This document shows, one piece after another, positions 8,230 through 21,130 of a stretch of DNA of 64,000 nucleotides. Under the pieces are notes generated by a model, which was not told the origin of the DNA, did no database searches, and saw only the letters and a list, made by a program, of their open reading frames with translations. The stretch is from the human T2T-CHM13v2.0 reference genome, Homo sapiens, in the NCBI RefSeq assembly GCF_009914755.1, contig NC_060947.1; one strand, 5' to 3'. Each line of letters begins with the position of its first letter. Within the stretch, counting starts at the first letter, position 1. The position numbers and the translations under genes were made by a program.

Positions 8230-8496
8230 CTACAACCCTACCCCTCTGGTGGCAACTCAGGGAAAAAATTCTTTAACTCTCCTCAAATCACCCATTTTTG
8301 AGTCCCATTTATTTGCTGGGACCTTGAAGGATCCAGTAGAATTACATCATTCTTATTTGCATTTGTTCTTACTATGTTTTCTAAAATTTCTACAATAACC
8401 ACAGAATACCAACCTTATTTCTACAATAACCAGAATACCAACCAGTAACATGAAAGGCACACTACAAATTACTTGCTTTGAAATTTAGAAACAAAT

Positions 8497-8502
8497 TTTA
8501 TT
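8497..8502 (-). terminator. MORF4L2: MORF4L2 distal polyadenylation signal (AATAAA); a proximal one lies at 8980-8985
   Basis: TTTATT on + strand about 630 nt downstream of the stop codon, at the end of a non-repetitive AT-rich 3'UTR. Confidence 0.65.
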
Positions 8503-9134
8503 TAAGATCTGAAATACAATTCCTAAAATATCAACTTTTCCAGAAAACCGTGGCTACACAATAATGCATTGCCTCTATCATGTTAGAACGTGCATTAGAC
8601 TCAAATACAAAAACCATGAAACAAATCACCATCCTTCAACAATTTGAGCAAAGATAGAATGCCTAAGAACAACATAGATGGACTTGCAGAGGATGGGCTG
8701 TTTTACTTCAAGCACCATAAAAAAAAAAAAGAGCACAAATGCATGGGTTTTCAGGTATATACATTAAGTTGAACCTTTGGCACTAGGAATCAGGGCGTTT
8801 TGTCACATAGCATTAACACATATTAGAAAATTGTGTAGTGTCAAAGGGATAGGAACCACCAGCATTCAAGCAATGTTGTCAACTAGGCAATAAAATGTTC
8901 TACTGAATGTTTCTTCTTTGTTCTAATTACTGCATACACTGGTAGCAACTTTGAAATGAGAAAAGGAGCTTACACTCCTTTTATTTTCTGTTTAAAACAG
9001 AACGGAAAACAAACTGAAACATAAGCCCTGTTATACATTAACGATTTTAAAGAACATCAATTTTACAAGAAAAAGACTAAGAACAAAAAGTGTTTACAGA
9101 TACAGGACAAAAATGGTGAGCTGTCTGTAGACGC

Positions 9135-10001
9135 TCACAGGGCTTTGCGGTGGTACTCAGCAGAAGCCACTTTGTAATCACTGGCAGTAAAGAGAGATGC
9201 AGAATTCTTTGCCAGATATTTTAGGAAATCATGCAAATAGCCCAACAATAATGCAAGGCTTTTCTCATCAAGGGGCGTATAGGCCAACATTGCTCCAATT
9301 CTTACAAATAATCTCAGTAGGTGTGGTGCTCCATAAACCTGGGACATTGGAGCATCAGGGTGAGCCAAGAGGATTTCAGCATACTGGGGCCTCTCAAATT
9401 TGTAGAGCAGCTGAGTGCCCAACATCACATTGAAATATTCTTTTATTCCTGCCACAACTTCATTAACCGCATATTCCTTATTATCAACATTTCCCTGCGA
9501 TTTCTTGCAATTTGCATACTCCTCCAGAATTGCATCTACATTTTTCTTGGCAGGGAGTTGAAACAGCTGCTTCTGCCTGGTAACTAAGTCCCAGTCCTCA
9601 ACAAGCCATGGTTTTAATTCTTCAGGAATCTTCACTTTAACCTCCATTCTATTCTTAAACGCCTCCTCACTTTCAACAGTGGGGTCTGCCCGGGCCCTTT
9701 TCTTCCGAGGGGGCTGAGGTGCTTCGCTGGTACTGCCACCATCTCCGTTTCCAGGAGTCTTCTGCTTGTTCTTTCTGGTCTTCCTCACGGATCCTGAAGG
9801 GGGGTTCTCTGCAGAGCGACCACCCCATCTTCCTGGGAGAGCTGGTTCAAGATTTTTCTGCTGTGGACCAGCTGTCTTCTTTCCTGAGGAGGCCCCTCTC
9901 ATTTTACTTCTCTGCATGTTGCTTCTAGTTGGTTTTTTGAAGTTCTCTTCTTCTGCAGATTGCTGTCCACGAGGTTGAGAACCCTGCTTTCTGGAACTCA
10001 T
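9135..10001 (-). CDS. MORF4L2: Mortality factor 4-like protein 2 (MRGX), MRG-domain chromatin protein (NuA4/TIP60 and Sin3 complexes); intronless CDS
   Basis: 288-aa ORF with NLS PPRKKRAR and MRG domain (KIPEELKPWLVEDWDLVTRQKQL...YGAPHLLRLFVRIG...EYHRKAL); acceptor TTTTATATATTACAG| at 10025. Confidence 0.98.
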   Translation of the reverse strand: MSSRKQGSQPRGQQSAEEENFKKPTRSNMQRSKMRGASSGKKTAGPQQKNLEPALPGRWGGRSAENPPSGSVRKTRKNKQKTPGNGDGGSTSEAPQPPRKKRARADPTVESEEAFKNRMEVKVKIPEELKPWLVEDWDLVTRQKQLFQLPAKKNVDAILEEYANCKKSQGNVDNKEYAVNEVVAGIKEYFNVMLGTQLLYKFERPQYAEILLAHPDAPMSQVYGAPHLLRLFVRIGAMLAYTPLDEKSLALLLGYLHDFLKYLAKNSASLFTASDYKVASAEYHRKAL

Positions 10002-10157
10002 TCAACCCTGTTTTTATTCCAACCACTGTAATATATAAAATATTTTACTTGGTTGTTTTCTATGGCAACCTTTAACTATGTTTCATAAAGGCCCATCAGA
10101 GAATAACACATTCTAACTCCCTTAAAATCTGGATTTCAAATCCTATTTCAGGACCCT
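10002..10157 (-). pseudogene. Degenerate 5' part of the MORF4L1 (MRG15) retrocopy: fossil chromodomain coding sequence, now intron and 5'UTR
   Basis: Translates KVAIENNQVKYFIYYSGWNKNRVE*VPESRVL, versus recalled MRG15 KVAIKDKQVKYFIHYSGWNKNWDEWVPESRVL. Confidence 0.85.
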
Positions 10158-11472
10158 TTATAAGTGATTTTTTATTTTTTTACCTCCTTTCCCTCTCTCT
10201 GATCCTCACTACCAGCCACTACTCTCATCTCACCCAAATACTCATCACAACTACCCATAAATTACTCTGTTGATGCCACTCACAAGATAGGAAAGCAATT
10301 TTCAAGAAAGAAGGAATTAAATGAAAAACTATAAAAGACAGTGGAGTTGAAATTTAAGACTTTTGAACAGGAGAAATGACAATATGGAATAGGGAAGGTT
10401 ATATTTAATTGACTAAGGGCAAAATGAGTAACAGTAAAGGTTCTTGTATTAGTCCAGAAAGGCCTGAATTAGGATGATGACAGAGTCAAGAGAAACTGAA
10501 GAATACAGAAATCATGAAGAATATAGTAACCAAAGGAGGGAGGAATCTGCAATTTCAAGCCTGGGTAATTAATGAACTTAATGAAAGCACTGAATTTAGG
10601 GTTTAGTTTGGAATCAGAAATAAAATGACAGAACATAGGTAATTCATCCATTCATTAATCTATTCAGTTTGTCATTATACATTACTGCATATCTGCTTTG
10701 GGACAAGTACTATGGTAGTTGCTAGAGATCCAAATATCTAAAGTGACAATTATAAAACGATAAGGTTAGTATAATGACAGTTATAGGCACAAAATAGTTT
10801 GGGAGCAGACACAAGAAATGGTACATGACACCACTGTCAGTGATTGTTTAAGAAGGTAAAAAAAAGATTGGTGAGGGAGGAGTCAGTGATGACTCCCAGG
10901 TATGGGTGATTAGGTTATTAGTATTATCACCAAATGATAATACTCCTCCATTTACAGGTGGAGAAAATGGATTGGAGGAAAAGTTGTGTTGGGCCTATTG
11001 TGTGTGAGATGTACAGTTAAACATAAAATTGTAAAGCTCAGTTTTGTCCAGCTAACTGGGTACCCACCCCACAACCCAAAACAAAAAAAAAAAAATAAAG
11101 CTCGGGTGAGAAGTAAAAGCCAGAAATGGAGATCTGAGAGTAACATCACATAGCTGGTAGTGGACACTACGAGGGCCAATGAAATCAGGGAGAAGAGAGG
11201 AAGAACTTCAAGTATGGAATTCTGGAAAACCTAAGGACGAAAGGCATTTAAGGGATGCACAGAGACCACAAATGAAACAAAAATGTTAAGAGTAGCCATA
11301 ACAGAATTAGAAGAATGTTATTTTGGATGCCAAAGATGATGAGCGTTCCAAGAAGAAAAAGGTATAATCTACAGTGTAAAGTGCAGCAGGGAGTGCTAGT
11401 AAGATAAGGATGCAAAAAATAGTCTTCCATTATTCTTATGGTGTGACAGAGGAAACAATTCCTTTGACTTAC

Positions 11473-11625
11473 ACAATCTTCCTTCTTTCCCTTCCAAGAA
11501 CTCCTAGTGATTTCCCAGATGAAATCTTATAGATCTTCTGGGATGGTCTAGAAGGGTGAAGTGGGAGATACAACCTAGAAAGAAAGGCAGGTATCTGCAA
11601 TGAAGATGAACTTTTGTGAAATCAT
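11473..11625 (-). other. MORF4L2: MORF4L2 5'UTR exon with three alternative acceptors (exon starts 11625, 11594, 11574)
   Basis: Donor TGT|GTAAGT at 11473; acceptors TTTTTTTCTTTTTCTTAG|, CTTCATTGCAG| and CTTTCTTTCTAG|. Confidence 0.75.
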
Positions 11626-12197
11626 CTAAGAAAAAGAAAAAAAATGAGTAATTTATAAACATGTGGTTTATATGTTTACATTTAAACACATATATGAATC
11701 ATATACCACAATTGTAAATCGTGGTATCAGAGAAAATACTTGAGTTCTGCTGTCAGACAGATCTTTACTTCAATTAGGCTCCGTCATTTATGAGTTGTGA
11801 GACCTCAGGCAAGACATGTAAGCTCTCTTAGCCTTTTTCTCATCTGTGGAATGTGGCAAATTACCTATAGCCTTCACAGGTTCCTGTGAGAATTTCATAA
11901 AGGTGATGTGGCTGAACAGCTAGCACAGTATGTTGCGGGAATATTTGCACATGGATACAAAGATGTTCAATGTAGTGGTGTTTGCAATACTGAAGAACTG
12001 GAAAACACCTACCTATTCTTCAACAGGAAAATGATAACATAAATTATGTATGAATACTACAGAAGAACATTCAAATGAATTAAGCAGAGATCTGTGTACT
12101 GACATGGAAAGATGTTCAATATATATTATTAGGTAAATAGGCAGTGGCATAATACTACAGGATCCCAAATGCAATAGGATCTTAAAGAGACAGATAA

Positions 12198-16330: not shown

Positions 16331-18144
16331 AATTATTTAACTTTTAAAGGTATCACTGTCTCTAGGCCATCTGTTCTGTCACAGTGGTATATCTGATAGT
16401 TCTCACCAGTATTAATTTAATTATCACAGTTTAAAGGCATAAATTTTGCTCTTGAAAATAACACTTGTAAATGGATGGCTACACTAAGAATATTTGATGC
16501 AGTATTATCTTAAATAGCAAAACACTAGGACCAATAGAAAAGGTTATCAATAGTGATTTCACATATTATGTGATTAACGTTTTATAATAAAATATATATA
16601 TTTAAAACTCACACTGACTTTCTGATCTACTTTTATTCATGGATCTCACAAATGGCCAGCCCAATTTTTCAGTTAATCATCATTGCATATTGTATACTTT
16701 GTAGACATATCATTCAGACTGGGCTCATTCCCTCCTTCTAAGTTCTACCCATCCTCTGTGGCTCAGGTCCAGGTCCTCTTCCTCTGTGAGGCTTTTTTTT
16801 CTCTATTTCTGGTCACCCTGACCCTTGCTTTCTCTGAGTCCCTGTTGGCTTAACAGTCCACCCCCTACCTTTGGCCCCTAATCATTCTCTAAATGGTCTC
16901 ATGTAAAGGTATTCTGTGCCTACCGATCTAATGCATCTCTTCCAGGAGGGCAGTGCCCTCCTCCGAAACCTACTTTTCAGAAGAGAGAAAAAAAAGGAAA
17001 TTACAGTGACTCCATATGTAGCTGTCAAAAGGCTGAAAAACCTTCAAATCCTACTTCATCTCTCCACACAAGCAATGGGCCATTTGGGAATCAGACTGCA
17101 AATGCTAACATCTTTTGTGTATGCATGTGTCAGAAAAGAGTGTGAGTAACATTTTGTTGGAATAAACCTTTAAATGCACATATACCATATCAGTTACATT
17201 CATATCAATTTTCTCTTCTGGATCTTGAAACATTTCCATTACATGTAATAGATTTTTTTTTTTAAGTCTGAGACAAAGGAGGAATGATACAAAAGCTGTT
17301 AGCAGACTGAATATTCAGTGAAAAGATTTGCTTATTTATAAATTTGGTTTGAACTGCTAGCTAAAATTATAGCTCCTGGAAATTCCCTCATAAATAAATA
17401 TGATCAATATATTTGAAACCTTTCTAGATTGTTAAGACAAGCCAGAAGTCATAATTTCGGAATTCAGTTCTAGTGGTAACTGCTGCTTCTGGAAAATGAG
17501 GAGAGAAACCAACGGTATTAATTATTATTTTTTTTTTACACAATTCCAAAAAGAAATATATCCACTGCTTTTAGAAGTAGGTGTAAATGTGTAGATAAAA
17601 CATGAGATTATCAGGACTAACAGAACCATAATTATTATTAAAGCAAATACTTACATGTGCCATGCACTGTCCTGGTACTTTACATGTAATCCTCTCAACA
17701 ATCCTATGAAGTAGGAACTATTATTATCACCTCTGTTTCATATACGAGGAACTTAGGTATAAAGTGAGTAAATATCTTGCCCAAGATCACATAGTTAAGT
17801 GGCAGAGCCAGGATTTAAATTCAGGAAGTATTTGCTCTTAACCACTAAACTATGCTGCATATAGGATGCTCCAAGGAAAAATGTAATCTATGGAACTGTG
17901 GAACTACTACAGGAGATTGACTGTAGTATCTTTTATCAAGGGATGTAAGATTACAAAGCCCTCTGTTGCTTATGCACTTTCTATACTGGAACTATCAATG
18001 GACTTAGCTCCACCCTTCCCTTCTCAGAATTTAGACTACTTTCCCAGATAGGAGCTTATTAATTTTCAAAATATTCCTGGACAGTTAGGAAGGTTATGTG
18101 GTATTATCCTGTTTGAGAACTGAGGACAGAAGGGAGGCACTTAC

Positions 18145-18234
18145 CCAAGATTCTGTAATCAGGGAAGGTTCTGCAATCAGGATCAGATCTCCTGATCCTC
18201 ACTATACAGCAAACTTAGCTTTTCTGATGGTGAC
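18145..18234 (-). other. MORF4L2: MORF4L2 5'UTR exon (90 nt)
   Basis: Acceptor CCTTTTGTTTGACCTTCTAG| and donor TGG|GTAAGT, located between the CpG promoter and the CDS exon. Confidence 0.75.
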
Positions 18235-19479
18235 CTAGAAGGTCAAACAAAAGGACAAGAAAGAACATAAAATAAAAAGATATGAGATATGGCTTTCTTC
18301 TACATCAGCCAATGCAATTTCATCACACACAAAGGACACCAAAGCTGATAAATAATGTACAAGTGTTTCTTTTTCCTTTCTTGTGGCCACATTTTCAAAT
18401 TTAATTTATTGTACATTTGTATAATTTCTGACAAATTTGTTTTTTAACTTTCCTTAAATATAATTTCAAATGGATGAAATAAAAAAGAAATAGTATTATA
18501 AACCTACACGAATCCATCATCCAGCTTTCAACAATTACCAACTGAAGGCCATCTTGTTTCATCTATAACCCCACCCACTGCTCCCCCCCACCCCCGACTT
18601 TTTCAAGCTCACCGGAATATCTGACTTCTGTATTTTATTATAGAAAAATTTAAACGTATACCAAGGAAAGCAGATTAATATACGCAACCCACTGCCTATC
18701 ACTCAGCAAAAAAATATTATTAATTTAGGGCCAATTTTGTTTCATCTATACCCCTCCCCATTTCCCCCTACCGCTGAGATTATTTTGAAGCAAATCCTAG
18801 TCATTAATGTATTTAGAAGCCAATCCCAGACATTATTTAATCCGTAAATATTTTCGTATGTCTCTACAAAAAAGGACAATTTGAAAACATAATCACAATA
18901 CTACTGTGACGCCTAAAAAAACTGACATCAATTCCCTAAAAAACATCAAATATCGAATCCGTGTCCCAATTTTCCCGATGCGTCTTAAACATATTTTTAC
19001 AGTTGGTGTGTTCGATTCAGGATCCAAACAAGGCCTACTCATCGCATGTGGTTCATCTCCAGCTCGCTCTCGTTCTCCATCTCTTTCTTTCTTGCACTCC
19101 CCCCCCCCCACCTTTTATTTAACTTTTCAATATAGGAAAATTACAATCTCTGCTATTTTGAGGCAATTCCCAAATAACAAATTATTTCATTGGTAAAAAT
19201 TGGTATATCTATTTTATCTTTAATTTATTCTAGGAAAGAAGTTGATGGCAGAAAGGGCACTACAATTAGCGAATTTATATAATTTATAATTTTTCTCATT
19301 CTATTACGCGTATTATTTATCTCCATAACAATAGCTAATATCTTCAGGGGCCAGGCTTCACATTACGTGCCTTATACGCACTATTATACAGTACACGTCT
19401 CTGAGGTAGATACTATTATTATCACCATTTTACAAACATGGAAACCGAGACACAGAAAGAACAGGAGCCTTGCCCAAGC

Positions 19480-20540
19480 TGGGCGTTGGCGAGCAGGAAT
19501 CTGAATCCAGCTCTGACCGATTGTGAAGGCACTAGGTAATCCCGTCTATACCCGACGAAAAAAGGAAATCATCGACCCTTTCTCCCCACCCCCACCCCGA
19601 AACCTGAAACGAGAATCCAGATCTTCCCAGCAGCCGACGTGTGATCACTGCCGTTCCTCCAACCGCCATAGTAAAGCCAGGTTTCTCTGGCAACTGATAT
19701 CCATAGGCAGACACGTCACCCTGGAGGAGGGCGTATGCCCTTCAGCCAATCACAATCGTCTTGTCTAAGTTTTAGAATGTTCCATAATCAAGTGATTGGA
19801 CAACCACCCCCACGTCAGCAATGACACTTCGCCGCAGTAAAGGCGGGTGCTAGCAACCTGCTTCTTCACTGTTAAGGTCTACAGCAAACCAATCCTCTTC
19901 CTCCGTTAGTGCGAGTTCCGGCCAATGACGTTCGCCCTCTTAGGTTTTTTTTTTTTAGCCCGCCCTCCAAAAGCGTGACAGCCGTTGGGTCATAAGTCTA
20001 CAGGGCAGAATGTTCACGTGGCCTATTTCACGACCCAGAGTTCCTCTGACCAGAGGGTTTTTTTTTTTCCTTTTCCTTTTTTTTTTTTTTCCTGCAGGGA
20101 GGCATTATGGGTTTGTGGTTTTTTTCCCCCCCCACTGGGAGAGGAAGTGTCTACGTGGCCTGCGGAAATAGGATAGGCGGAAATGAGCTAAGGTTCCCGC
20201 GAGTGGGGAAGCGCGAGGTCAAATCTGGGGCCACGCCCCCAGTCCTGTGGCGCAACTCCCCGAACACGGAAAAAAAAGGCGCAGTGGGGGTTCTGCTGTG
20301 TTTGCAAGTGAGGGTCGTGAGTGCAACGGGCGCAAGGCATTAAGGCCAGTGTGTTAGTGCGCGGGCAGGCTCGCGTGGTGCTGGGGTTGCTGTGTGAGCG
20401 GCCCTCGTGGCTCGGGAGGTGCTGTGTTTGCGCAGGCGTGCGCCCCTGGCGTCGGGACTGGTGAGAGCCACGGCGGGCGCGCGCGCGTGCGTGATGGTGG
20501 GGGCGGTGCAGGGAGGGGTTTGCTACTGCGCGCAGGTTGT
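19480..20540. promoter_or_regulatory. MORF4L2: CpG-rich bidirectional promoter region (MORF4L2 / MORF4L2-AS1)
   Basis: Sharp rise in CpG density; several CCAAT/ATTGG boxes (19746, 19795, 19889, 19922), TGACGT-type sites (19712, 19810, 19926) and a YY1-like CCGCCAT (19663). Confidence 0.85.
19604..19750 (-). other. MORF4L2: MORF4L2 probable main first exon (5' boundary approximate)
   Basis: Lies inside the CpG promoter; candidate donor CAG|GTTTCG at 19604 followed by a G-rich intron start. Confidence 0.55.
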
Positions 20541-20962
20541 TATCTATTTCTGTGTTATATTTGAAAATGTTCTAATGAAAAGGAAAATAAATAATTAAGG
20601 AAAGGCGACAATAACAGATAAAGGGGCACTGTCAGAAATATTTTGGCTTTCCGTACTGATTTAATTACTTTAAAAATACACTTCCTACGTTTTCCTCCGT
20701 GCCAAAATCCTGTCGTAAACCACAGCCCTCCAATGATTCAGAGCCAAACCCTTCCATCGCCGCATTAGCAACTCCAAAGGGAGGCTTCTTTCAAGTTCTC
20801 TAGTATCGTCCTCCCTCCCCTCCTCCACACCTACCCCCTCCCTTCAAGGTTGCGTGCAGTTCTCTTGGCACAAATACAATTTTCCTGTGAGAATATCTAT
20901 CTACGACAGCCTTCCCCTCCGTTAGGGACTCCGGATTTCTGTGGCGACTGAGGCGCTCTTAC

Positions 20963-21130
20963 CTTTGCGTCCTGATCTCCAAGCAAGCACACTGACCTTC
21001 TTCAGGCAAATACGCACTGTTAATTTTCCAGAAAGTTCTGTGAGTAAGGTTTATACCTCTCGAGTCTGCCACTAGATGCCGCCAAATCCCAGCAAAGGAT
21101 TGGCTGTTTGGTCCCTGGGATTCTGGGATT
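20963..21130 (-). other. MORF4L2: Probable distal alternative first exon of MORF4L2 (5' boundary approximate)
   Basis: Strong donor AAG|GTAAGA at 20963; CCAAT boxes at ~21099 and ~21158. Confidence 0.5.

What the first reader, a model, noticed from the sequence alone, without database searches (positions are those of the whole stretch)
9906..10157. MORF4L2 built its splice acceptor, start codon and novel N-terminus out of a dead chromodomain
Seen (- strand): 10157-10089 reads RVLK*DLKSRF*GS*NVLFSDGP, 10072-9947 reads KVAIENNQVKYFIYYSGWNKNRVE*VPESRVLNLVDSNLQKK, and 9945-9907 reads ELQKTN*KQHAEK. These align colinearly with the recalled MRG15/MORF4L1 N-terminus MAPKQDPKPKFQEGERVLCFHGP...KVAIKDKQVKYFIHYSGWNKNWDEWVPESRVLKYVDTNLQKQRELQKANQEQYAEG (31 of 41 identical in the middle block), with no introns. 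So the whole chromodomain-coding 5' end of the parent mRNA is still present as a fossil. The current acceptor (TATATTACAG|TGG, 10025) is made of the old Tyr-Ser codons. The current ATG (10001-9999) straddles the old Glu codon and the Trp codon that became TGA. MRGX residues 1-32 are out-of-frame readings of the old sequence, which rejoin the ancestral frame at K33 after a -2 and a +1 indel. Established: MRGX lacks the methyl-lysine-reading chromodomain of MRG15 and has a unique N-terminus. Inference: the domain was lost by intronisation plus frameshift rather than by 5' truncation, and the new N-terminus arose by frameshift translation.
Basis: partly seen in the sequence, partly recalled or inferred. 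Interest (0 to 1): 0.8.

Follow-up and report, generated by a model that had tools for sequence, protein, structure and literature searches.

The report
MORF4L2: retrogene that spliced away its chromodomain
MORF4L2 is an old, full-length retrocopy of MORF4L1 whose chromodomain-coding 5' end survives as a decayed fossil, partly inside the last intron and partly re-read in other frames as the new N-terminus, so it shows how a protein domain can be lost.

Summary
All three translations reproduce exactly. The middle block matches the MRG15 chromodomain at E=6e-15, 31 of 41 identical.

I rebuilt the MORF4L1 mRNA from chr15 of the same genome. It aligns without introns to window 10247-8476 (-), from about 83 nt of 5'UTR to the poly(A) site, across all 11 exon junctions. 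So the retrocopy is not 5'-truncated.

- **Old start codon:** it now reads AGG at 10157-10155.
- **Acceptor:** the AG at 10027-10026 is the first two bases of the old Ser47 codon.
- **Start codon:** the ATG at 10001-9999 spans old Glu55/Trp56.
- **Co-opted, not built:** both signals already exist in MORF4L1. Three C>T changes enrich the pyrimidine tract.
- **New N-terminus:** residues 1-18 and 19-31 read two different shifted frames. A -2 and a +1 indel restore the old frame at S32/K33.
- **Splice use:** two processed pseudogenes of MORF4L2 carry the 11473|10025 junction.
- **Timing:** old codons 1-31 show neutral decay over the gene's whole age, so the domain was probably lost early. The 45 nt before the acceptor are constrained.

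This is a clear example of known mechanisms. I found no description of it in print.

The parts
8476..10247 (-). Whole retrocopy of the MORF4L1 mRNA (short, 323-aa isoform), from 5'UTR to poly(A) site
   Evidence: Local alignment of the rebuilt MORF4L1 mRNA, nt 38-1759 of 1764, with no introns across all 11 exon junctions
10158..10247 (-). Fossil of the parental 5'UTR, now intronic
   Evidence: 70.4% identity over 81 aligned nt, K2P 0.39; blastn E=8e-4 for 10247-10208
10155..10157 (-). Old MORF4L1 start codon, now AGG
   Evidence: Codon table
10028..10157 (-). Intronised chromodomain codons 1-46, carrying stops at old Q5, Q12, E15 and K29 plus a 5-nt and a 3-nt deletion
   Evidence: Codons 1-31 decay at the neutral rate; codons 32-46 are constrained
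10026..10027 (-). Acceptor AG, the first two bases of the old Ser47 codon AGT. The last exon starts at 10025
   Evidence: the hub annotation, and the junction carried by pseudogenes L002 and L019
10002..10025 (-). Exonic 5'UTR made of old codons 47-55
   Evidence: 21 of 24 nt identical to the parent
9999..10001 (-). Current start codon, spanning old Glu55 (GAA) and Trp56 (TGG, now TGA). The same out-of-frame ATG exists in MORF4L1
9948..10001 (-). MORF4L2 residues 1-18, read in the parent's frame shifted by 2 nt. A 2-nt deletion lies at 9948|9947
9909..9947 (-). MORF4L2 residues 19-31, read in the parent's frame shifted by 1 nt. A 1-nt insertion lies at about 9909
9135..9908 (-). Residues 32-288 plus the stop codon, in the ancestral frame (K33 = parental K88, M34 = parental M89). 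Contains the MRG domain
9784..9845 (-). 57+3 nt insertion relative to MORF4L1, at the parental exon 5/exon 6 junction. Origin unknown
8473..9134 (-). 3'UTR homologous to the MORF4L1 3'UTR down to the AATAAA and cleavage region
   Evidence: 86.1% identity, K2P 0.156; ends compared
10250..10266 (-). Candidate upstream copy of a target-site duplication
   Evidence: 71 of 2000 shuffles and 6 of 1074 genomic 40-mers reach the observed score. Suggestive only
8461..8473 (-). Candidate downstream copy of a target-site duplication, directly after the end of mRNA homology

Best explanation
MORF4L2 arose in the stem lineage of placental mammals as an L1-type retrocopy of a complete, spliced MORF4L1 (MRG15) mRNA of the short isoform. 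It inserted on the X chromosome between GLA and GLRA4.

Transcription now starts about 10-11 kb upstream. Three short non-coding exons are spliced into a 3' splice site that lies inside the retrocopy, at the old Tyr46-Ser47 codons. That site (TTACAG|T) already exists as a latent site in the parental coding sequence.

Splicing there removes the parental 5'UTR, the start codon and the first 46 codons. The chromodomain can therefore no longer be made.

Translation starts at an ATG that also pre-exists out of frame in the parent (GAA TGG). It reads 18 codons in one shifted frame. After a 2-nt deletion it reads 13 codons in the other shifted frame. A 1-nt insertion then returns it to the ancestral frame at S32/K33, and the linker and MRG domain follow unchanged.

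The result is an MRG-domain subunit without the methyl-lysine reader.

Shown here: the anatomy, the homology, the use of the junction, and conservation of the new N-terminus as protein.

Inferred: the loss happened at or soon after insertion. This rests on old codons 1-31 having decayed neutrally for about the full age of the gene. Also inferred: the 45 nt before the acceptor are now constrained as splicing signal.
For: 1. Full-length, intron-free colinearity with the MORF4L1 mRNA rebuilt from chr15, with exon-by-exon matches at E from 1e-17 to 6e-16.
2. The fossil lacks the 39-residue cassette of the 362-aa isoform (chain 8bpa_D split into two stretches).
3. The acceptor and the ATG are identical in the parent. 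Three C>T changes lie in the last 20 intron bases.
4. The indels and the codon-by-codon fate are listed.
5. The parental shifted frames read close to the MORF4L2 N-terminus. Residues 19-32 of MORF4L2 and the parental +1 frame are near-identical.
6. Junction use: L002 (chr4, about 87-90% identical) joins window exons 19636-19602 / 18236-18145 / 11573-11473 / 10025-8473. L019 (chr6, 65% identical) spans 11473|10025; its exon-3 part beats 1000 of 1000 shuffles. L019 already has the -2, the +1 and the insertion.
7. The MORF4L2 protein has only an MRG domain.
8. Of the 99 hits, every MORF4L2-type hit that carries a species name is from a placental mammal, including the xenarthrans Choloepus and Tamandua. 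The one exception is a tick-labelled entry. I aligned 15 of the 99. Of the 14 orthologues, 12 carry residues 1-32 in the same frame, with 22-30 of 31-32 residues identical to human.
9. Winter & Ponting 2005 (PMC1274310, passages read) report that the GLA-GLRA4 interval has no counterpart in chicken or opossum.
10. Decay test, using dN of the fossil divided by dS of codons 88-323. Codons 1-31 give 0.45 (bootstrap CI 0.25-0.76). Two dead MORF4L1 pseudogenes, L018 and L020, give 0.43-0.56. Codons 32-46 give 0.14 (CI 0.03-0.30).
Against: - No poly(A) remnant remains at the 3' end, and the target-site duplication is only suggestive.
- No nucleotide sequence from other mammals was available. The order of acceptor use, stops and indels, and dN/dS in the new versus the old frame, were therefore not tested.
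- The annotated ATG has a weak context (T at -3, A at +4), while the in-frame M29 and M34 have A at -3.
- 2 of the 14 aligned orthologue models start at M29. In one search, 13 of the 33 best hits cover less than 98% of residues 1-100. Some of these may be pseudogene-derived models.
- The start site was not verified by proteomics or ribosome profiling here.
- The early-loss inference rests on 27 codons. Its confidence interval still allows the domain to have been kept for up to roughly 45% of the gene's age.
Confidence: 0.85

Rival explanations
1. Late loss. The retrocopy first worked for a long time as a full-length MRG15-like gene with a functional chromodomain. It lost the domain by mutation and by adopting the internal acceptor only shortly before the placental radiation.
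For: Taken together, old codons 1-46 show fewer non-synonymous differences than a dead-on-arrival model predicts: ratio 0.32, CI 0.18-0.53, with 9% of bootstraps at or above 0.45. The CI for codons 1-31 (0.25-0.76) does not exclude a period of constraint.
Against: The deficit comes entirely from the 15 codons next to the acceptor (ratio 0.14). Codons 1-31 give 0.45, the same as the true pseudogenes L018 and L020 at 0.43-0.56. The acceptor and the ATG needed no new mutation. The very old pseudogene L019 already carries the junction and both indels.
Confidence: 0.12
2. Residues 1-28 or 1-33 are not really translated. The protein starts at M29 or M34 (the parental M89, as in MORF4), and 10001-9918 is 5'UTR. 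On this reading there is no frameshift-derived N-terminus.
For: The Kozak context at 10001 is weak, while M29 and M34 have A at -3. 2 of 14 aligned orthologue models start at M29. The independent retrogene MORF4 uses the M89-equivalent start.
Against: In 12 of 14 aligned orthologues, from bats, carnivores, rodents, a lemur and sloths, the frame from M1 is open. Its identity to human (69-94%) is as high as that of the adjacent in-frame linker. One 90%-identity cluster with this N-terminus holds 228 member sequences. RefSeq annotates the CDS from 10001.
Confidence: 0.08
3. The similarity upstream of 10025 is chance, or the gene is a DNA-level duplicate or a 5'-truncated retrocopy.
For: None found.
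Against: E-values run from 1.5e-8 to 1.4e-17 for the separate pieces. The whole-genome search with the intron alone finds only MORF4L1 retrocopies. The order is colinear across 11 exon junctions with no intron. The parental ATG position and 5'UTR are present.
Confidence: 0.01

Closest known systems
MORF4L1 / MRG15 (chr15), the parent gene
   Same: The MRG domain and linker are colinear. PDB chain 8bpa_D aligns to MORF4L2 residues 20-287 at E=1e-130. The 3'UTR is 86% identical.
   Different: MORF4L1 has 12 exons and an N-terminal chromodomain. MORF4L2 has its whole CDS in one exon, no chromodomain, 31 N-terminal residues from shifted frames, and a 20-residue insertion.
MORF4 (chr4q; locus L004), a younger MORF4L1 retrogene
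   Same: It is also a retrocopy of MORF4L1 (95.8% identical). Its longest ORF lacks the chromodomain: 235 aa starting at the M89 equivalent. This is a second, independent chromodomain-less product of the same parent. That this locus is the gene named MORF4, and that its product is 235 aa, is recalled and not taken from a call.
   Different: The frame is broken by a single 1-nt deletion at about CDS 114, and the ORF simply starts at the next in-frame Met. There is no recruited upstream exon, no internal acceptor and no shifted-frame N-terminus.
Retrogenes that gained 5' exons or introns (intronisation in retrogenes: Szczesniak 2011 PMC3002245 and Kang 2012 PMC3565874, abstracts seen; Fablet 2009, recalled)
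   Same: Former exonic sequence of a retrocopy has become part of an intron, and new upstream non-coding exons supply the promoter.
   Different: Only the acceptor lies in the retrocopy, so intronisation is partial. It removes a functional domain and is coupled to shifted-frame translation. MORF4L2 is not mentioned in the main text of PMC3565874, PMC3257199 or PMC12124190, nor in the one held supplement of PMC3565874.
New coding sequence by frameshift translation or overprinting (general phenomenon, recalled)
   Same: A protein segment is encoded by ancestral coding DNA read in another frame, and compensating indels restore the downstream frame.
   Different: Here two different alternative frames are used in succession. 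The start codon is itself a pre-existing out-of-frame ATG, exposed by splicing.

Membership tests
Processed retrogene (retrocopy of MORF4L1 mRNA) | Colinear with the spliced parental mRNA across exon junctions, without the parental introns | tested here: met
   mRNA nt 38-1759 of 1764 aligns to 10247-8476 across all 11 junctions
Processed retrogene (retrocopy of MORF4L1 mRNA) | Located away from the parent gene | tested here: met
   Parent on contig C15, copy on C23 (X)
Processed retrogene (retrocopy of MORF4L1 mRNA) | Poly(A) tail remnant at the 3' end | tested here: not met
   No A-run follows the end of homology at 8476. This is expected for an insertion of this age
Processed retrogene (retrocopy of MORF4L1 mRNA) | Flanking target-site duplication | tested here: inconclusive
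   A gapped 13-17 nt match lies directly at both ends. 71 of 2000 shuffles and 6 of 1074 genomic 40-mers score as high
Intronisation of exonic sequence | Intron sequence homologous to former exon (parental mRNA) sequence | tested here: met
   10247-10026 equals the parental 5'UTR plus codons 1-46: 71.5% identity over 214 nt. The intron-only genome search agrees
Intronisation of exonic sequence | Both splice sites created within the former exon | tested here: not met
   The donor follows the exon ending at 11473, in DNA with no MORF4L1 homology. Only the acceptor lies in the retrocopy
Intronisation of exonic sequence | The junction is used in mature RNA | tested here: met
   Two processed pseudogenes carry the 11473|10025 join, and the hub annotation shows it. 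No RNA-seq was available
Frameshift-derived (overprinted) coding segment | The segment aligns at nucleotide level to parental CDS but is read in another frame, with compensating indels | tested here: met
Frameshift-derived (overprinted) coding segment | The new frame is under purifying selection | tested here: inconclusive
   Protein-level conservation is 69-94% in 12 of 14 aligned orthologues. dN/dS in the new versus the old frame needs orthologous DNA, which was not available
MRG family (Pfam PF05712) | MRG domain | tested here: met
   E=8.1e-58, residues 101-277
Chromodomain-bearing MRG15/Eaf3 subfamily | N-terminal chromo / Tudor-knot domain in the protein | tested here: not met
   No such Pfam hit in the 288-aa protein at E<=1. 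Only the untranslated fossil resembles it

The most novel reading that the evidence does not exclude
MORF4L2 was 'born spliced'. The MORF4L1 coding sequence itself carries a latent 3' splice site at Tyr46-Ser47 and latent out-of-frame ATGs. A full-length retrocopy that lands downstream of a splice donor would then lose its chromodomain in a single step, with no disabling mutation required. The stops and indels would come afterwards. The former chromodomain codons 32-46 would then have been kept under selection in a new role as branch-point and pyrimidine-tract sequence. Together with MORF4, this would make MORF4L1 a parent gene predisposed to give off reader-less MRG paralogues.
Probability: 0.45. 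Interest if true: 0.6.

Novelty: new member of a known kind. Interest (0 to 1): 0.5.

Why it matters
MRGX/MORF4L2 is used interchangeably with MRG15 in the NuA4/TIP60, Sin3B, ASH1L and PALB2 complexes. The functional literature describes it only as 'the paralog that lacks the chromodomain' (PMC9253478, abstract and passages read). The locus records how that loss came about: a complete retrocopy, a latent acceptor inside the domain, and a new N-terminus read in two shifted frames.

This gives a dated, checkable example in a well-studied human gene of three things: domain loss by partial intronisation, new protein sequence arising by frameshift translation, and former coding sequence becoming a constrained splicing signal. 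It also raises a practical question, namely which start codon is used and whether the placental-conserved residues 1-31 have a function. It does not change what is known about MRGX biochemistry.

Tried and rejected
1. Origin of the 57+3 nt insertion (9845-9784). It sits at the parental exon 5/6 junction, so I tested for an old alternative exon or retained intron. There was no similarity to MORF4L1 introns 5 or 6 (scores 14-16 against a shuffle mean of 14.1, max 23) and only 9-13 nt chance words across the 34 kb of chr15 held. It remains unexplained.
2. Was the chromodomain kept for a long time? Codons 1-46 looked under-decayed (ratio 0.32). Splitting them showed that the signal comes only from the 15 codons next to the acceptor, so I withdrew that reading.
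3. Paralogous promoter or 5' exons, such as the BGW element of neighbouring Xq22 genes. The genome search with 17600-21100 found only the L002 pseudogene and short dispersed repeat-like matches. The table in Winter & Ponting marks no BGW element for MORF4L2.
4. Poly(A) tail: none found.
5. Literature. Ten full-text searches paired MORF4L2, MORF4L1, MRGX or MRG15 with retrogene, retrocop-, retrotranspos-, intronless, processed pseudogene or intronization. Judging by listings and the passages read, none returned a paper describing the retro-origin or the fossil.
6. Papers and tools I could not reach. The early family papers were not held (Bertram 1999, Tominaga 2005, Chen 2010, Yochum 2002), and Bertram & Pereira-Smith 2001 has no PMC id. 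They may describe the gene structure.
7. Not attempted: structure prediction, complex prediction and the large representative-protein search. None bears on the question.

Full report
**1. The observation**

The annotated CDS 10001-9135 gives a 288-aa protein.

Read with X at its stop, the middle block matches the solved MRG15 chromodomain (2efi_A, 2f5k_A) at E about 6e-15, with 31 of 41 residues identical. The 362-aa isoform (8bpa_D) matches only as two stretches, because it has an extra insert between WNK and DEW that the fossil lacks. The template was therefore the short isoform.

The MORF4L2 protein itself has only a Pfam MRG domain (E=8e-58). It has no chromo or Tudor-knot hit.

**2. The parent sequence came from tools, not from memory**

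A DNA search of the window's own genome found three kinds of match:
- MORF4L1, exon by exon, on contig C15;
- several intron-less MORF4L1 copies;
- a 90%-identical copy on C4 whose match begins exactly at window 10025.

I fetched 34 kb of C15. I located 12 exons with GT-AG borders, using a 98.7%-identical retrocopy (L003) as a guide. I then joined them in a script. The join encodes a 323-aa protein whose N-terminus and chromodomain agree with the PDB alignments.

**3. Anatomy**

mRNA nt 38-1759 of 1764 aligns to window 10247-8476 on the minus strand, with no intron at any of the 11 junctions. The retrocopy therefore includes about 83 nt of parental 5'UTR, the start codon, the whole CDS and the whole 3'UTR down to the AATAAA and cleavage region. 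It is not 5'-truncated.

Codon by codon:
- **Old start codon:** the old ATG is AGG at 10157-10155.
- **Stops:** old Q5, Q12, E15, K29, W56 and Q81 are stop codons.
- **Deletions:** a 5-nt deletion follows CDS 67 and a 3-nt deletion lies at CDS 89-91.
- **Acceptor:** the AG at 10027-10026 is the first two bases of Ser47 (AGT), preceded by Tyr46 (TAC).
- **Start codon:** the ATG at 10001-9999 is the last base of Glu55 plus the first two bases of Trp56.
- **Frame-restoring indels:** a 2-nt deletion at 9948|9947 and a 1-nt insertion at about 9909 bring the reading back to the ancestral frame at S32/K33. K33 is parental K88 and M34 is parental M89.
- **N-terminus:** residues 1-18 therefore read one shifted frame and residues 19-31 read the other.

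Translating today's MORF4L1 mRNA in those two frames gives strings recognisably like the MORF4L2 N-terminus. For residues 19-32 they are nearly identical.

**4. What was built and what was already there**

The last 10 intron bases, the AG and the first 10 exon bases are identical in MORF4L1. The ATG is too. Within the last 20 intron bases the only differences are three C>T changes, at -15, -12 and -8, which make the tract more U-rich.

The signals were co-opted rather than created. The donor follows the exon that ends at 11473, in DNA with no MORF4L1 homology. Only 222 of the 1447 intron bases come from the retrocopy, so this is partial intronisation.

**5. Is it more than chance?**

The pieces score as follows:
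- E from 1.4e-17 to 6e-16 against the separate chr15 exons;
- E=1.5e-8 for the weakest block, 10169-10089;
- E=8e-4 for the 5'UTR part.

A whole-genome search using only intron DNA (10026-11700) returns, apart from the query locus itself, only two things. One is the exon-3 segment of pseudogene L002. The other is four MORF4L1 retrocopies matched over 10170-10026.

**6. Is the acceptor used?**

No RNA-seq tool was available. The genome nevertheless holds two retro-transcribed snapshots of the mRNA.
- **L002 (chr4)** joins window 19636-19602, 18236-18145, 11573-11473 and 10025-8473.
- **L019 (chr6)** is only 65% identical. It also runs from exon-3 sequence straight into 10025 and onwards. Its exon-3 part scores 42 against a shuffle mean of 18.3 and maximum of 32, so 0 of 1000 shuffles reach it. 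L019 already shows the -2 state, the +1 state and the insertion.

The hub annotation lists no alternative to exon 8473-10025 among the 16 transcripts.

**7. Age and conservation**

Searching residues 1-100 returned 99 proteins at E<=0.001 out of 144 candidates. Every MORF4L2-type hit that carries a species name is from a placental mammal, including the xenarthrans Choloepus and Tamandua. The one exception is labelled Ixodes ricinus, which I take to be host contamination (inference).

I aligned 15 of the 99. Of the 14 non-human rows, 12 carry residues 1-32 in the same frame, with 22-30 of 31-32 identical to human. That is similar to the in-frame linker at residues 33-52. The other 2 rows begin at M29.

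Winter & Ponting 2005 (PMC1274310, passages read) report that the 2.3-Mb interval between GLA and GLRA4 has no counterpart in chicken or opossum. Their table lists MORF4L2 in that interval. The gene is therefore eutherian-specific, and all its peculiar features predate the placental radiation.

**8. When was the domain lost?**

I used old-frame Nei-Gojobori counts against MORF4L1. Two old, stop-riddled MORF4L1 pseudogenes (L018 and L020) served as controls for the method. For these dead-on-arrival copies, dN of the chromodomain codons divided by dS of codons 88-323 is 0.43-0.56. This is as expected when only the copy accumulates non-synonymous changes.

For MORF4L2, dS of codons 88-323 is 0.82. 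Codons 1-46 together give 0.32 (CI 0.18-0.53), which at first suggested a period of retained function. Splitting them removes that suggestion:

| Old codons | Present role | dN / dS(88-323) | Bootstrap CI |
|---|---|---|---|
| 1-31 | distal intron | 0.45 | 0.25-0.76 |
| 32-46 | 45 nt before the acceptor | 0.14 | 0.03-0.30 |
| 47-55 | exonic 5'UTR | 0.11 | 0.00-0.31 |
| 56-86 | new-frame coding | 0.17 | 0.06-0.33 |

The distal fossil has therefore decayed neutrally for about the gene's whole life. The acceptor-proximal part is constrained, most simply as splicing signal. Early loss is the better reading. The interval is wide and rests on 27 codons.

**9. Comparison with known cases**

L004 (chr4) is a 95.8%-identical MORF4L1 retrocopy. 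A single 1-nt deletion at about CDS 114 breaks its chromodomain frame, and its longest ORF is 235 aa starting at the M89 equivalent. From recall, this is the gene MORF4. The same parent has thus twice produced a chromodomain-less MRG protein by different routes.

Retrogenes that gain 5' exons, intronisation in retrogenes (PMC3002245 and PMC3565874, abstracts seen) and coding sequence born by frameshift are all known kinds. This locus combines them.

**10. Novelty in print**

None of the ten full-text searches found a description of MORF4L2's retro-origin or of the fossil. Recent functional papers call it only a paralogue lacking the chromodomain (PMC9253478).

The early gene-family papers were not held. 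Retrogene-catalogue supplements could not be read. The bare fact 'MORF4L2 is a retrogene' may well be recorded there. The detailed anatomy appears to be undescribed.

**11. Verdict**

It is a clean, instructive member of known mechanisms in a well-studied gene, of moderate interest.

Noticed in passing
window 9784-9845 (-): A 57+3 nt in-frame insertion relative to MORF4L1, about 20 residues, conserved in all aligned placental orthologues. It sits exactly at the parental exon 5/exon 6 junction and ends in a donor-like GTGAGG. It has no similarity to MORF4L1 introns 5 or 6. Its origin is unexplained.
   Followed up: partly
window 8473-9134 (-): The 3'UTRs of MORF4L2 and MORF4L1 are 86% identical (K2P 0.156). 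That is far less diverged than synonymous sites of the CDS (dS 0.82), so a long 3'UTR has been strongly constrained in both paralogues since before the placental radiation.
   Followed up: no
L019 (C6, about 116258195-116259036): A very old (65% identical), 5'-truncated processed pseudogene of MORF4L2 mRNA. It preserves the exon 3|exon 4 junction, both frame-restoring indels and part of the insertion.
   Followed up: yes
L002 (C4:57573931-57575693 approx.): A younger processed pseudogene of MORF4L2 (about 87-90% identical). It contains four joined exons and uses the shorter 11473-11574 form of exon 3.
   Followed up: yes
window 9900-10001 (-), plus the 5'UTR exons at 19604-19672 and 11473-11625 that hold the two upstream ATGs: The annotated ATG has a weak context (T at -3, A at +4). 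In-frame M29 and M34 have A at -3. Two upstream ATGs in the joined 5'UTR open 32- and 16-codon uORFs. Leaky scanning to shorter isoforms is possible.
   Followed up: partly
L004 (C4:176954200-176957848): A MORF4L1 retrocopy (95.8% identical) with a 1-nt deletion in the chromodomain codons and a 235-aa ORF starting at the M89 equivalent. This is a second, independent chromodomain-less derivative, presumably the gene MORF4.
   Followed up: partly
L017 (C23:63750001-63760000): An X-linked MORF4L1 processed pseudogene (86-87% identical) split by an insertion of about 2.3 kb between mRNA nt 543 and 553.
   Followed up: no
protein P0011: A 289-aa 'MORF4L2' deposited under the tick Ixodes ricinus is 83% identical to the human N-terminus. 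It is almost certainly mammalian host RNA in a tick transcriptome.
   Followed up: no
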